DNA of 64,000 nucleotides from Fimbriosthenelais zetlandica. Lineage: Eukaryota. This document shows positions 38,501-53,500 of this stretch, one piece after another. How positions within the stretch are numbered: position 1 is the first letter of the stretch; the number at the start of each line of letters is the position of its first letter. The stretch lies in contig OZ365112.1 in NCBI GenBank assembly GCA_977030845.1, positions 11,098,001 through 11,162,000 of the forward strand. Reading direction: 5' to 3'. A program made the position numbers.

Positions 38501-41500
38501 TTGCTGCTGTGGGAATCATTAACATTCTAGCTTTATTTCCTTTTATATTTTCTGTTACTAGATACGTAGGTCATTGCACAGCCATTATGATAGACTATAA
38601 TGGATTGTTGTACAATGACCTCTATGCAATGACTTCAACTTATAACTGCCAACCGTCCTATATAGTTGAAAATAATGTACGATAACATATAAGTAATATT
38701 GCAATTAAAGATATTAAATAAATGAAAGAATGCAGAGGAACATCCCCAGACCCTCTAAATAAACCTCTAACATTATATTATACATTATGTAACTACATAA
38801 TATCGTTCTCGCTGATGAGAGCATATTAATACATGTCTACATGTAGGTCTGCTCTGTAGTCATTCGCTGCTGTGCAAACAGGCACTCACTGGCAAATAGA
38901 ATATCATAGAGCAGTTGACCAACATATGAGATTGAATTGCTCTCAGGGAAATGCAAAAAGATTAATCAAGATTATACATATAGAGCGAACATTTATCACC
39001 ACTGAATAGTCAGAAAAGATATATACATTTATAAATGTTTATAAATGAGATTATGTAATGTGCAGTATCATCATTTCTCTTGATATATAAATTTCTATTC
39101 AATCATGTAATACTGGTTACTCTGATGCGTAGTGTTTCCTGTTGAAATAATTCTGTTTACCCCTCTGAGGCCATGCATTATTCAAGTCAAATAAAGTCAT
39201 CAGTCGTACGAGCTTGGTAATGATGATTAGTACCATTTATCAGCCCTCTATATGGAAATGAGGAAAGCAATACCAGACTAAAGCATAACAAAGCCTGGAC
39301 TAAGCCGCATCCCGGTTAAAATTCATCATGTCGTTGCTATATACAACGTACGGGCCCACTCAAGGGAAATCAAGCCAAGCTTTCGCGTTCAATGCGCACC
39401 ATATGAGGGACTTTTATAAGATTTCTTTGCTGATTTCTGAGTGTCCCACAGGGTGAGAAAAAAACTCTGGTTGTAGATTGTTTCAACAATATGCAGGTAA
39501 ATATTTTCGAAGACGACTTATTTTTAATACCCTCCAACTGTAAATACTCAAATTGAAGTTGAAAGAGAAAACAGATAGAGTTTCACTTAGGTCAATGCAT
39601 GACCAGCAGTATCATCTAACCCTTTCTCTTAAAACCCAACCCTAACTCAGGCACATTTAGGTATGTACCCTGAGGCTGCTCTTCAGGCATATGGTGTGAT
39701 GAAATATGGAAATACTCTCCCGCGGAAACATGCCAAACTGGGACAACACCCCAACCTACAGGAAATATCAATACCCAGTGTCAAATATCCATCACTGCCC
39801 CATTCTGTGTTATAAACATTCATTGCTGTGCCCACTCGAAATGTTGACCGTACATGTATTTCCATCTGGGAACATTCTTTGTATATTAGTATATCTAATT
39901 TTGCATACTTTTTGTATATTTGCAGGTCTACGAGAAACACTTGAAAAGCAAACCTCAATGGATAGCTGCTTATACTGAAGGAAGAGCTTTTGAAAAATTT
40001 TCTGATGACAGAAAGTGCTTTTTTTGTATAAATTAAGGCAACAAGACTCAAAAGCAAAATGCCTGGAGGAATTCATCATCCGAATCAATATCATAAGTCA
40101 CCCCACCAGTCTCCACAGCACAGACCTAAACCTCCTGGTGCCCCTGGATACGGTCCTCAAGGTCAACCCTATCAAGGTCAAAACCCCCAAGGTTATGTTA
40201 ACCAAGGTCAAAGTTACGCATCTCACCACCATGGACACCAGGATCATGGTCCTCCAAGCCATGGGGCTGCGGGTCAAGGGTATTACTCTGGAGGTCACGG
40301 TAAGGGGTCTGGAGGTCATTACAGTCCCCATCATGGCAGTCCGAGTCACTCAGCCTATAAAAGTCATGACGGCTACATGTCCACCCCGTCAATGCACGGG
40401 AGACCCAGCTCACCGCGCCCGGGCTCTCCACGGCTCTGTGACCGCCCCTTATCCCCTCACATGGAACGTAGGGCATCATCACCTCGACCAGGTAGCCGGC
40501 CGACATCCCCCCGACCCGCCAGCCGACCCACGTCCCCCCACCCCGGTGACCGTCAACGTCCAACCTCCCCCAGACCCTCTGACAAACCCACGTCCCGCTC
40601 CCTTGACCACCCAGCCCCCCAGCGTCATGGCCACAGCCCTCCTCTCTATGCTCATCACGGTCCCCCTCCCCCTCATCACGTTTCCCCTCATCATGTTAGC
40701 AGGCGGGACCCTGGAGGATCACCTATCGCCACCTCACGACAGCCTCGTGATCGTGCCTACAGGCATCGCCCTCCACCCAAACGTATACAGCGCCAGGACA
40801 GTCGCTGTATGGCCATACACAAGAGTTACGATGATGATAAGATTGTCATGCCCACAGGACTACCTACCAAATATGGCAATCCCCAGTGAGTATTTCTTCA
40901 TTTCATTTATTTTTCGCTCATTACATTTTCCCAATCTGACTGTGCCCTATTATTTCAGAGTCATCCAGTAGTTTTTCTATAGATGTTATCCTTTGTATTT
41001 TCTCCATTTTTTTCTCCATCTTGTTCTATGCCCACACATTGAAACTTAATCCGACAAAACGTCAAACAAATAAGAGATGGCGAAGTATTAGGTAACACCA
41101 CGCGTATAGAACTCGGAGCGGGCTTATTAAAGGCACGAGCTGAACATTAGGTTGGATGAAGTGCTTGTGAGGGACCTTATCTCGTGTTATCCATGCACAT
41201 GCAGCGGAAAGTGATCAGAAAATCCGATTTGTCTCCCACAACTTTTCCATTCCGCACAATTCCCTGCATCATATATCAATTTATTCATGTCTTGTCGCCT
41301 GGGAATTGAGATTTATAATTCAAAGATAGGACTTGATGAATTAGATAGTGTGTAGAGAATGTCATGTTCCCACCCTTTATCTGATTATAGATATGATGAA
41401 AGAGGCGCTCAAGAGTCACTCTCTCTTGAGACATCCTATTTTACACTATTCAGTCTAGTGTTGACAATAATCTATTTTACTTGACAATCTTATTAATTAT

Positions 41501-50500: not shown

Positions 50501-53500
50501 CATGCAGGCATGCATTGCTTAACAAAAATCCCTCTAATTGGCCCATATTGTCCCTTTTATACTATCCCATTGTTCCTTTGTTACTCTCTCATTCTCATTT
50601 CTCCCCTTCCTCATATAGTGCCTTAGTGGCCATTATCCCTTCGTCATATTTTCCCATTCTCCCTCTCTTATATTGTCCAATTTTCCCCTCAAATTTTCCA
50701 TATTTCCCTGATCTTTCCACCAAATAAGTTGGCCAAATACTAAATGTAATTGTCTGTATAACGAGATCCCAAATTGGTACTTTGCTCGTGTTTCAAAAGG
50801 TGGAATCTTTCAACATAGCGCCGACTTCGAGTGAATAGAACCTGATGGTAAGGTTCCGGTAAATATGCTGTCCACAGAGAAAGGACCTTCGTCTGGTTTG
50901 CGGACAGAGAGGAATACCACCAGAGGGGACCGCTCCTGTAGCTCTATGTAGGATCGAGATAACCAGATCTGGATGTTGTCTGGGCTCCATTTCTGTTTTA
51001 TCTTAGTCAGTCGGATGAAAAATTGAGTTAGAAATGGCATACAAATTCCAAAGGTCTGGTGCTGTATCATCCCCTGCGACCAGGAAGGTCCGCGGTTTTA
51101 TTCAACACTGAAAGAGTCGTGAGCTCTCAGATAATATAGATTGCGATAAAGTCACTCAATTTGAAAATCTTCCATGCATATTTTAAAGCGCAGAACTAAT
51201 TTCATATTGATATAAATTGCTGCTCAGAACCCACATTCCACCTTTAGAAATACCATGGAATCTGATGCAAACACATTCACAAGTTCTGCCTGATTGTGTC
51301 TAGAGTGAATCGTTCAAAGTATAACGTTTTTACGTAAGACCAGACCCTTTAGGGATGTTGGAAGTTGGAGTACGACCTACCTTTTAGCACAATGAAACTT
51401 GTTAATTTCATTTTCCAAAGGCAGAACCTTGATTAAAGATGCCGTAAGAACATCACCGATTATTAGACTAAAATCTGTCATAACCAGATATAATCTATCA
51501 TACACGCTCCACATGCACTCAAGGTGTTGCATAATACAGAATTGCACCTGAAATCTGTTGCCTCCCACAGATATCCTACACCATTCATAAGTAGATGCTT
51601 TCATATGGAGGTAGGGGAATGGAGGGCTACGTAAGAAGGCAGTAGCTCTCGGGTGGGGCAAGCATATGATGGTAATGATAATGACACATAAAAGAGAGAT
51701 TGCATGTTAAAACAGCGCCCTAGGGCTACTATAGACTTGAGGGCAGGTCCGTTCTCCACTATAGCAGTGTATACGTGATCATGCCTCGTCACATAGTCTG
51801 TAATAAGGCTAATGGTGATGTACCCTCAACATAACGTGTCTTCTTCTCCGCCGGAAACTCTAACCCTGAAGTCTTTTCTCCACCTCAGGCTACAGGTACA
51901 AGCCCAGTCCCTCAATTGTATCCCTATGCTGAGGCATATTGAATATCACCCAAGTTTGCTGCTGACAGATAATACGCGCTCTTATCAGATTGCAATGGCA
52001 TATTGCAGAAATGTAGGGCAAAGAAGGGGTGAGTTAGGGTCAGCTAACGTATGGTTCCCCACTCTGATGAAGTTTCAGTTATTGAGTTCATCCCCTTAGA
52101 TTGAACACGAACAGAGATCAGTTTTCAAGGGAGGACTCCGCAATGTTTTCAGATTGCCTCATGAGTGAATAATAACCATTGGAATGGGAGCCTATGCATT
52201 TTCAATAATAAAAGATTGCTCCAATAAAATAAAAGATTGCACCAATAAAATGTATCTGATGACCTACAAATGACCTCAGAATAAAATATACTCCATTCTG
52301 CATATAGGACGTTGCATAAACTTGCGAAACATGTTAATGAACAGCTTGCAGAATCTGGTGAGTATCATGCATTTTCATCGAATTCTGCAAGTTGTTCGCT
52401 TGAAAATCTTGTTCCGTGAGCTTGATATCATATTGTAAAGTCACAAGTAAGATAGTAGATTTTATTAACAGAGCTTCGAATGGAGGTATTACTGCACTAA
52501 TCTTTTATATTAATGGTCTGTTTAATTATGGCATTCACCATGCCCAGATAATGCTCATAAGGTAGATAAGGAAGGTGCATGGATATATCCAGGATTCCCA
52601 CGCTGGTTATCTATGGGTTCTTTTGTGATGTAGGTGAAGTATTAGGGATATAAGGATAGCTATCTGAATTACTGTGGATTGGATGATAGATGCACAAGGG
52701 CCGTGTTCTCATCGAAGGGATTTAAGAGACAAGTATCCCATATATATTGACATGTATAGTGATAAGAGATTTAGCTTTGTTCCTTTATGAGATGGATTAT
52801 GTGTCTGAACCAAATAAAAGCAGGCCTGATTCCTCTCCCAGATACACTTGGCCACCAACATCCAAAGGGTGCACATCTTGCTGGGAGAGGAACAGGAGAG
52901 AGAGACTTCAATGACTGTGTTATTGTTGTCCCATTGAGGAAGACTTGGGCTGGCCACAGTATTGCATGTAGGTACATGCATGATGCCAGCGAGGTTGGAG
53001 GATTGATGATCCTAGGTAGAGGATCGGTATGACGACACTGTAGTAGTGTATTGAAGAGGACGTGTCACCACGACGTCATGAGGGACCTTCAGCCATGCCT
53101 ATACACGTATGAACTTTTCGAGCTCTGCTAAGAAAGTTGGTCATAATTTTCCTGATGTTTACGAGTAATATAAGTACGTTTCATCTCTCATGAGAGGAAA
53201 AAGCATCCATTGGTGTACTCCCTGCCCATCTAATTCTACTATTGTGATATTAATCAATGTCATATGATACATATAACACAGACCGACTGATTACCAGCCA
53301 GGCAAAAGCCATGTGAGGCCAGACATTATGGTGGACAAAGAATTCATTAACCTCACCATGGTCCCCCTAATATCATAGCCCGATAACGATCTACCTATGG
53401 TGGATATTCATAGTCTTTCGTAATAATGAGACAGAGAGCCCTGATGCCTATATGGGTAATAAGGATTAATGATCAATGCAGTTTTTGCTGCTCAGTTTTT

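What the first reader, a model, noticed from the sequence alone, without database searches (positions are those of the whole stretch)
40059..52357. One gene with swappable phospho-regulatory N-termini: alternative first exons converging on one phase-2 exon
Seen in sequence: three separate ATG-initiated segments (40059-40885, 41841-41863, 49650-49972) each end at a strong GT donor in phase 2, and a well-bounded 50-nt exon at 52308 is open in phase 2. Inference: alternative promoters give isoforms with a 275-aa His/Pro tail, a 107-aa basophilic Ser-rich tail or almost no tail on the same core. The two long tails carry different kinase-motif classes (proline-directed versus PKA-type), which suggests tissue-specific rewiring of regulation. 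I could not identify the core protein.
Basis: partly seen in the sequence, partly recalled or inferred. Interest (0 to 1): 0.65.

Follow-up and report, generated by a model that had tools for sequence, protein, structure and literature searches.

The report
Candidate alternative first exons, gene unnamed
Two stretches that look like separate protein-coding start exons for floppy, phosphorylation-rich protein tails lie 9 kb apart on one strand and may feed one gene, but the body of that gene is not in this window and the shared splice target is unproven.

Summary

- **1A** is beyond chance. Its open frame is matched by 0-2 of 2000 shuffles, it holds in-frame 27- and 15-nt repeats, and a good acceptor lies upstream.
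- **1C** is supported by several signals together: the best-scoring donor of 3482 GTs, an ACCATGG start, six basophilic sites (0 of 5000 shuffles) and a cluster of five TAATCC sites at its 5' edge.
- **1B** is at chance level.
- **The 50-nt exon** is one of four equally eligible phase-2 candidates downstream of 1C. Its acceptor is mediocre.

Every phase-2 GTRAG donor is also an in-frame stop, so each segment can equally be read as a complete unspliced ORF. No homologue, Pfam domain or solved structure was found for any exon, and no recognisable core lies on the + strand up to 64000. The control enzyme gene next door found only 24-25% relatives, so these blanks mean little.

Verdict: 1A and 1C are plausible alternative first exons of one unnamed gene (about 0.35). 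Convergence on 52308 is untested. An ordinary kind of architecture if real.

The parts
39399..39420 (+). CArG-like CCATATGAGG (one core mismatch) followed by TATAAG. Possible core promoter for the 1A transcript; weak evidence.
   Evidence: The window holds 20 such one-mismatch CArG-like sites and 63 TATAA[AG] on the + strand, so neither stands out.
39445..39496 (+). Possible non-coding leader exon. The 5' end is guessed from the TATA-like box; the exon ends at donor tgcag|GTAAAT.
   Evidence: The donor GT at 39497 ranks 28 of 3482. Sequence.
39926..40885 (+). Exon 1A with its 5' untranslated part. The acceptor is tatatttgcag|GTCTA at 39926 and coding runs 40059-40885 (275 aa plus 2 nt). It encodes a His/Pro/Gly/Ser-rich tail with RPxSP repeats. 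The donor is cca|GTGAGT, which is also an in-frame CAG TGA.
   Evidence: Acceptor rank 26 of 3784 and donor rank 113 of 3482. ORF reached by 0-2 of 2000 shuffles. Motif counts. GC by codon position is 0.67/0.61/0.46.
40494..40545 (+). 27-nt (9-aa) tandem repeat in frame inside 1A. A second, 15-nt repeat lies at 40669-40697.
   Evidence: Both periods are multiples of three.
41841..41863 (+). 'Exon 1B': a 7-codon ATG segment before GTAAGA. Chance level.
   Evidence: No usable acceptor precedes it: a start at 41834 scores -10.1, rank 2894 of 3784.
49538..49667 (.). Cluster of five TAATCC/GGATTA sites (49542, 49554, 49591, 49605, 49662), with a perfect 12-nt inverted repeat TGCTTAATCCAT/ATGGATTAAGCA (49538-49549 and 49603-49614). 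It spans the 110 nt before the 1C ATG and the first codons. Candidate K50-homeodomain-type promoter module.
   Evidence: The window has 31 sites in all. A cluster of 5 in 130 nt is reached by 0 of 300 dinucleotide shuffles (largest seen was 4, in 2 shuffles).
49650..49972 (+). Exon 1C: 107 aa plus 2 nt. A Ser/Arg/Lys-rich tail with six [RK][RK]xS sites at residues 16, 32, 45, 65, 81 and 95. The start is ACCATGG. The donor is aag|GTGAGT, which is also an in-frame AGG TGA.
51889..52099 (+). Rival phase-2 acceptor exon. It is either 51889-52028 (140 nt, ending at donor GTGAGT at 52029) or a terminal exon with its stop at 52097-52099.
   Evidence: Acceptor rank 39 of 3784 and donor rank 18 of 3482. 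No Pfam match.
52207..52285 (+). Five AATAAA hexamers, partly within a 21-nt tandem repeat. They sit directly upstream of the proposed 52308 acceptor.
   Evidence: 5 of the 46 AATAAA on the + strand.
52308..52357 (+). The proposed 50-nt common exon. It reads 16 codons in phase 2. The donor is strong and the acceptor mediocre.

Best explanation
1A (coding 40059-40885) and 1C (49650-49972) are genuine ATG-bearing 5' coding exons on the + strand, each with its own upstream control region. Each encodes a long, probably disordered N-terminal tail packed with kinase sites. In 1A these are proline-directed RPxSP-type sites. In 1C they are six evenly spaced basophilic RRxS-type sites.

Most probably they are mutually exclusive alternative first exons of one gene. 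Each is spliced in phase 2 to a common downstream exon, and the conserved core of the gene lies beyond position 64000. Promoter choice would then decide which set of kinases can act on the same core.

What is shown: the open frames, the splice-site letters, the phases, the motif enrichments and the TAATCC cluster.

What is inferred: transcription, splicing, translation, membership of one gene, and any regulatory role. 52308-52357 is only one candidate for the common exon, and 1B is not part of the model.
For: 1A:
- Its open frame is reached by 0-2 of 2000 shuffles.
- It holds in-frame 27- and 15-nt repeats.
- Third codon positions sit near the window's background GC, while positions 1 and 2 are GC-rich (0.46 against 0.67 and 0.61).
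- An acceptor ranked 26 of 3784 lies 133 nt before the ATG, and a donor ranked 28 of 3482 lies further upstream.

1C:
- Its donor ranks 1 of 3482.
- Its start is ACCATGG.
- It has six [RK][RK]x[ST] sites where shuffles give 0.91; 0 of 5000 shuffles reach six.
- That density ranks 1 of 231 ORFs.
- The TAATCC cluster at its 5' edge is reached by 0 of 300 shuffles.
- Its codon-usage score of 0.086 compares with a background mean of -0.234, sd 0.12.

One gene:
- Both exons are on the same strand and in the same phase.
- 1C has an in-frame stop 9 nt before its ATG with no AG between, so it cannot follow 1A as a coding exon.
- No recognisable exon lies between them. Of 133 + strand ORFs in 40882-52270, the best Pfam E-value was 0.001.
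- Neither segment is repeated elsewhere in the window.
Against: There are no transcript data and no relatives.
- 1A against longer proteins: 0 hits among 5398 candidates.
- 1C against longer proteins: 0 hits among 206 candidates.
- 1C against 1.84 billion representatives: 6 hits, all multi-stretch low-complexity matches in proteins of 947-3180 aa.
- Pfam, PDB and the Atlas were blank.
- The exact sequences are not in the collection.

Each donor doubles as an in-frame stop, so unspliced ORFs of 276 and 108 aa fit the same letters.

A shared phase has a 1-in-3 chance.

Weak points of 1A:
- Its donor is only rank 113, and an internal GT at 40300 ranks 17.
- The 1A region is also open in a second + frame (320 aa) and in a - frame (165 aa), as low-complexity DNA often is.
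- The codon-usage score trained on the TTL ORF preferred the +1 frame of 1A (0.06 against -0.143), and its frame 0 is within 1 sd of background.

1C's ORF length alone is reached by 21-60 of 2000 shuffles.

No Pfam domain turned up in the + strand ORFs of 52300-64000. 123 ORFs were scanned and the best E-value was 0.045, so there is no core to anchor the model.
Confidence: 0.35

Rival explanations
1. There are two separate genes. 1A starts one gene and 1C starts another. In the limit each is a complete unspliced small ORF (276 aa and 108 aa) that ends at the TGA lying inside the apparent donor.
For: The in-frame stops CAG TGA and AGG TGA are in the sequence. The two peptides share no similarity. 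Each has its own upstream signals. ATTAAA hexamers lie 240 nt or more after the 1A stop, at 41126, 41523 and 41545.
Against: The stop of 1C coincides with the single best donor match of 3482 GTs, and only 2 AGGTRAGT occur on the whole + strand. That is unlikely for a mere stop codon. No AATAAA or ATTAAA lies between 49976 and 51432. No second gene body was recognised between 40886 and 49500.
Confidence: 0.25
2. One or both segments are not coding at all. 1C would be a chance ORF beside a chance donor. 1A would be a C-rich low-complexity stretch that lacks stops in several frames.
For: 1C's length is reached by 21-60 of 2000 shuffles. Comparable ATG-to-donor segments occur elsewhere, such as 5669-5999 on the + strand. 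1A is open in two + frames and one - frame. The codon-usage score was not decisive for 1A. No search found a relative.
Against: 1A's frame is reached by 0-2 of 2000 composition-matched shuffles. Its repeat periods are multiples of three. Motif enrichment holds in both tails against residue shuffles. For 1C, the rank-1 donor, the ACCATGG start and the TAATCC cluster all coincide. Blank searches carry little weight, because the neighbouring TTL enzyme gene itself found only 2 relatives, at 24-25% identity.
Confidence: 0.25
3. It is one gene, but the common exon is not 52308-52357. One version splices the first exons to 51889, which then either continues from the donor at 52029 or ends at the stop at 52097-52099, with polyadenylation at the AATAAA cluster 52207-52285. 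That would give small proteins with no large core. The other version places the true second exon beyond the window.
For: Acceptor 51889 ranks 39 of 3784, against 243 for 52308. It is open in phase 2 for 69 codons. Five AATAAA follow its stop within 110-190 nt. Those same hexamers fill the place where the 52308 acceptor should have its pyrimidine tract.
Against: The 51797-52096 frame has no Pfam match and an unremarkable peptide. ORFs of this length are common here: 66 of 90 aa or more in the window. The donor after the 50-nt exon ranks 6 of 3482, which favours that segment being an exon of something.
Confidence: 0.15

Closest known systems
Multi-promoter genes of the PDE4/dunce type, where alternative first coding exons give isoform-specific N-terminal regions on a common catalytic core (recalled, not tested by any search)
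   Same: Widely spaced ATG-bearing first exons on one strand, each with its own promoter, joined to common exons. The N-termini carry regulatory phosphorylation and targeting information, including a basophilic RRxSF-type site like the first site in 1C.
   Different: No phosphodiesterase domain or any other Pfam domain was found on the + strand of 25300-64000. The 16 residues of the 50-nt exon could not be searched. Membership is not claimed.
MITF and PGC-1alpha style alternative-promoter genes. I saw these only as titles and abstract starts in the listing (PMC2376962, PMC12874118). The exon details are recalled.
   Same: Several first exons with tissue-specific promoters converge on the same second exon, giving proteins that differ only at the N-terminus.
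   Different: In those genes the convergence is shown by transcripts and the core is known. Here neither is known.
K50 paired-like homeodomain target promoters (Otx, Crx, Pitx, Bicoid class) that bind TAATCC. The abstracts listed (PMC6258689, PMC6004077) name TAATCC as the K50-type target. I did not read the full texts.
   Same: Five exact TAATCC/GGATTA sites lie within 126 nt at the 5' edge of 1C, arranged as two inverted pairs.
   Different: These are sequence matches only. No binding, expression or conservation data exist. The spacings (6 and 8 nt between the hexamers) are not the classical P3 dimer site (recalled).

Membership tests
Alternative-first-exon (multi-promoter) gene architecture | Each first exon ends in a functional 5' splice site | tested here: inconclusive
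   Consensus letters only. 1C ranks 1, 1A ranks 113 and 1B ranks 88 of 3482 GTs. Each site is also an in-frame stop. No junction reads are available.
Alternative-first-exon (multi-promoter) gene architecture | The downstream first exon cannot be used as an internal coding exon after the upstream one (mutual exclusivity) | tested here: met
   The 1C frame opens at 49641, after a stop, with no AG before the ATG at 49650. Entering through the only nearby AG, at caccag|T, gives a stop after 5 codons (read).
Alternative-first-exon (multi-promoter) gene architecture | All first exons leave the same codon phase | tested here: met
   827, 23 and 323 nt all leave phase 2. The chance for two exons is 1 in 3.
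Alternative-first-exon (multi-promoter) gene architecture | A single shared acceptor exon is seen in transcripts | not testable with these tools
   No transcript data. By sequence, 52308-52357 is one of 4 phase-2 candidates downstream of 49972.
Alternative-first-exon (multi-promoter) gene architecture | A separate promoter or transcription start before each first exon | tested here: inconclusive
   The TAATCC cluster before 1C is significant (0 of 300 shuffles). The TATA-like and CArG-like letters before 1A are not. There are no CAGE data.
Alternative-first-exon (multi-promoter) gene architecture | A common core protein downstream | tested here: not met
   No Pfam family at E below 0.045 among 123 + strand ORFs of 28 aa or more in 52300-64000. 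If the core exists, it lies outside the window.
PDE4/dunce phosphodiesterases | Catalytic PDEase domain and upstream conserved regions | tested here: not met
   No such Pfam match among the 386 + strand ORFs scanned in 25354-63943. This resemblance is an analogy only.

The most novel reading that the evidence does not exclude
Promoter choice swaps a whole kinase-input module on one core protein. One choice gives a 275-aa His/Pro tail with seven RPxSP-type (proline-directed, DYRK-like by recalled consensus) sites. The other gives a 107-aa tail built of six regularly spaced RRxS modules (PKA/PKG-type). The promoter of the second tail is driven by a K50 homeodomain factor of the Otx/Pitx/Crx class. 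The same protein would then be wired to different signalling pathways in different cell types, in a lineage so poorly sampled that neither tail has any detectable relative.
Probability: 0.12. Interest if true: 0.5.

Novelty: new member of a known kind. Interest (0 to 1): 0.3.

Why it matters
If real, this would be a clean natural example of regulation rewired by exchanging disordered phospho-tails through promoter choice. It would come with a readable promoter code (the TAATCC cluster) for one of the tails. The architecture itself is common in animal genes, so the value is mainly for annotating this genome. Gene finders that rely on homology would miss both exons, and the core gene downstream would be annotated without its N-termini. 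Nothing here bears on a long-standing open question.

Tried and rejected
Exon-by-exon homology searches, all without a usable hit:
- 1A against longer proteins.
- 1C against longer proteins.
- 1C against all 1.84 billion representatives. Its 6 hits were low-complexity, multi-stretch matches, which I rejected as relatives.
- Both tails against Pfam, PDB sequences and the ESM Atlas.
- Exact look-ups of the spliced-end and unspliced forms.

The 16-residue exon is too short for every search tool.

I scanned stop-free ORF pieces instead.
- No family scored better than E = 0.001 on the + strand of 25354-63943.
- There were 0 families at E up to 0.01 among 121 - strand ORFs of 50 aa or more in 25477-63999.
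- The 80 - strand ORFs of 1-23063 listed were not scanned.
- Two weak hits could not be located among the ten longest ORFs of their sets and were dropped: DUF6564 at E 0.001 and DNA_binding_1 at E 6e-4.

The codon-usage test trained on the TTL ORF did not discriminate for 1A.

Rfam found nothing in the window.

1A followed by 1B as an in-frame 30-nt cassette was rejected, because the acceptor at 41834 scores -10.1.

No paralogous copies of the exons exist in the window.

Cross-species conservation therefore stayed unchecked. I opened no paper supplements.

I do not take the contig for human. CpG observed/expected is 0.47. The only recognisable gene has no exact match and finds only 24-25% relatives in the protein collection.
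Full report
**The window.** It is 64 kb with no N. GC is about 0.40 and CpG observed/expected is 0.47. Rfam finds nothing. The only recognisable gene is an intronless ORF of the tubulin-tyrosine-ligase family on the - strand at 23443-25146. Its Pfam TTL match has E = 1.6e-18, and its best solved relative is TTLL7 at 8e-15. That exact protein is not in the 15-billion collection. The word-index search found only 2 proteins with E up to 0.001 among 5299 candidates, two insect 'ttll-15' proteins at 24-25% identity. 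I therefore read the DNA as an animal-like genome from a lineage that is thinly represented in the protein sets, and not as human. This control matters below: a blank homology search for a fast-evolving disordered peptide from this genome says very little.

**The observation.**
- 1A, 40059-40885: 275 codons plus 2 nt before cca|GTGAGT.
- 1B, 41841-41863: 7 codons plus 2 nt before aaa|GTAAGA.
- 1C, 49650-49972: 107 codons plus 2 nt before aag|GTGAGT.
- 52308-52357: 50 nt between catatag| and |GTGAGT. It is open for incoming phases 2 and 1 and closed for phase 0.

I scored splice sites with a crude matrix whose frequencies I recalled rather than trained. The ranks are only a yardstick within this window.
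- Donors, out of 3482 + strand GTs: 1C is rank 1, the 50-nt exon's donor rank 6, 1B rank 88 and 1A rank 113.
- The 52308 acceptor is rank 243 of 3784 AGs.

**A point that changes how the observation should be weighed.** A GTGAGT or GTAAG donor used in phase 2 necessarily reads xxG TGA or xxG TAA. All three 'exons ending at a phase-2 donor' are therefore also plain ORFs ending at a stop, of 276, 8 and 108 codons. The phase agreement is partly a by-product of finding the segments as ORFs. Between two real exons it has a 1-in-3 chance anyway.

**How far each piece exceeds chance.**

*1A.*
- The open frame is reached by 0 of 2000 dinucleotide shuffles of 39900-41050, and by 2 of 2000 shuffles of the ORF alone.
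- Its two tandem repeats have periods of 27 and 15 nt, both multiples of three.
- GC is 0.67/0.61/0.46 at codon positions 1/2/3, so the third position sits near the window's background.
- An acceptor ranked 26 of 3784 lies at 39926, and a donor ranked 28 of 3482 lies at 39497. This fits a spliced non-coding leader.
- Against it, the stretch is also open in a second + frame (320 aa) and in a - frame (165 aa).
- The codon-usage score trained on the 568-codon TTL ORF preferred the +1 frame (0.06 against -0.143).
- An internal GT at 40300 outranks the terminal donor (17 against 113).

*1C.*
- Length alone is weak: 60 and 21 of 2000 shuffles reach it. Other ATG-to-GTRAG segments of 300 nt or more occur at 5669-5999 (+) and once on the - strand outside the TTL ORF.
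- What lifts 1C is the coincidence of independent signals.
- It has the best donor in the window, one of only 2 AGGTRAGT on the + strand.
- Its start is ACCATGG.
- Its codon-usage score is 0.086, against a background of -0.234 with sd 0.12.
- It has six [RK][RK]x[ST] sites where residue shuffles give 0.91, and 0 of 5000 shuffles reach six.
- That density is the highest of the 231 ORFs of 60 aa or more in the window: 5.4 per 100 aa against 0.24 overall.
- The sites fall at residues 16, 32, 45, 65, 81 and 95, a near-regular spacing of 13-20 residues.

*1B.* It is not distinguishable from the 45 (+ strand) and 38 (- strand) ATG-to-GTRAG segments of 20-60 nt. It has no usable acceptor that would make it a cassette exon.

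*The 50-nt exon.*
- With my thresholds, 9 candidate exons between 40886 and 64000 accept phase 2, and 4 of them lie downstream of 49972. Phases 0 and 1 have 5 and 6 candidates overall, and 4 each downstream.
- Five of the 46 + strand AATAAA lie at 52207-52285, inside a 21-nt tandem repeat. That is exactly where this acceptor should have its pyrimidine tract.
- A better acceptor at 51889 (rank 39) is also open in phase 2. It leads either to the donor at 52029 or to a stop at 52097-52099 followed by those AATAAA.

**The kinase-motif claim holds.** 1A has 15 [ST]P against a shuffle mean of 8.15 (30 of 5000 shuffles reach it). It has 11 Rxx[ST] against 4.09 (2 of 5000), and 7 R[PA]x[ST]P, but only one [RK][RK]x[ST]. 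1C has the reverse pattern, with 3 [ST]P against an expected 2.81. Naming particular kinases (proline-directed or DYRK-like for RPxSP, PKA/PKG-like for RRxS) rests on recalled consensus motifs, not on any call.

**Promoter hints.**
- The 126 nt from 49542 to 49667 hold 5 of the window's 31 TAATCC/GGATTA sites. The window as a whole has fewer than expected: shuffles give 45.4 with sd 6.4.
- A cluster of five within 130 nt was reached by 0 of 300 shuffles.
- Two of the sites sit in a perfect 12-nt inverted repeat.
- TAATCC is named as the target of K50-type paired-like homeodomain factors in abstracts listed (PMC6258689, PMC6004077). I saw only the listing and the abstract starts.
- Before 1A there is a CArG-like CCATATGAGG and a TATAAG at 39399-39420, but such matches are frequent here (20 and 63 in the window).

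**The core protein.**
- I searched exon by exon only.
- Nothing was found for 1A or 1C.
- Stop-free + strand ORFs of 25354-63943 (130, 133 and 123 pieces) gave no Pfam family better than E = 0.001.
- The 121 - strand ORFs of 50 aa or more in 25477-63999 gave none at E up to 0.01.
- No convincing exon follows 52357 in the window.
- If there is a core, it lies past 64000.

**Weighing.** My rough estimates:
- 1A is a real coding exon: about 0.8.
- 1C is a real coding exon: about 0.65.
- Given both are real, they belong to one gene: about 0.6. The reasons are the same strand, the same phase, 1C being unusable as an internal exon, and nothing recognisable between them.
- The specific convergence on 52308 comes out near 0.1.

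The rivals are listed with their evidence: separate genes or unspliced small ORFs, non-coding chance features, and a different common exon.

**Comparison with what is known.** Alternative coding first exons that give different regulatory N-termini on one core are a common animal gene architecture. Examples are PDE4/dunce (recalled) and MITF and PGC-1alpha (titles and abstract starts). If real, this locus is a new member of that kind, in an unnamed gene. It is not a new kind.

Noticed in passing
window 23443-25146, - strand: An intronless 568-aa ORF of the tubulin-tyrosine-ligase family. Pfam TTL gives E = 1.6e-18, and the best solved relatives are TTLL7 and TTLL6. It has a hydrophobic stretch near the N-terminus and a Cys-rich C-terminal part. 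Its nearest relatives found are only 24-25% identical (insect ttll-15), and the exact sequence is absent from the collection.
   Followed up: partly
window 52207-52285: Five AATAAA hexamers within 79 nt, partly inside a 21-nt tandem repeat. This could be a polyadenylation site for a transcript ending here, and it weakens the neighbouring 52308 acceptor.
   Followed up: partly
window 51812-52028, + strand: A further ATG-initiated open segment (72 codons plus 1 nt, phase 1) ending at a GTGAGT donor ranked 18 of 3482, only 280 nt before the 50-nt exon. That exon is also open for phase 1.
   Followed up: no
window 49496: A strong donor-like site, caacag|GTGGGTGA (rank 7 of 3482), lies 154 nt before the 1C ATG, with acceptor-like sites at 49355, 49411 and 49555. 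It could mark a non-coding leader exon for the 1C transcript.
   Followed up: no
window 47746-47858 and 48130-48185: (TGAG)n / GAGTGAGTGAATGA-type and (GGT)n microsatellites. The first inflates the + strand GTGAGT count: 40 GTRAGT on the + strand against 16 on the - strand.
   Followed up: no
window 46577-46768: A 41-nt tandem repeat, 4.7 copies, 84% matches. Its nature is unknown.
   Followed up: no
window 55976-56306, - strand: Three overlapping open frames of 97-99 aa in a CT-rich low-complexity stretch (Pro/Ser/Leu-rich). It is probably compositional and not coding.
   Followed up: no
window 1-23400 (+ strand ORFs) and 40882-52270 (+ strand ORFs): Two weak Pfam matches whose ORFs I could not locate. 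One is DNA_binding_1 (the methylguanine methyltransferase DNA-binding domain) at E = 6e-4, in 1 of 102 ORFs. The other is DUF6564 at E = 0.001, in 1 of 133 ORFs. Neither is among the ten longest ORFs of its set.
   Followed up: partly
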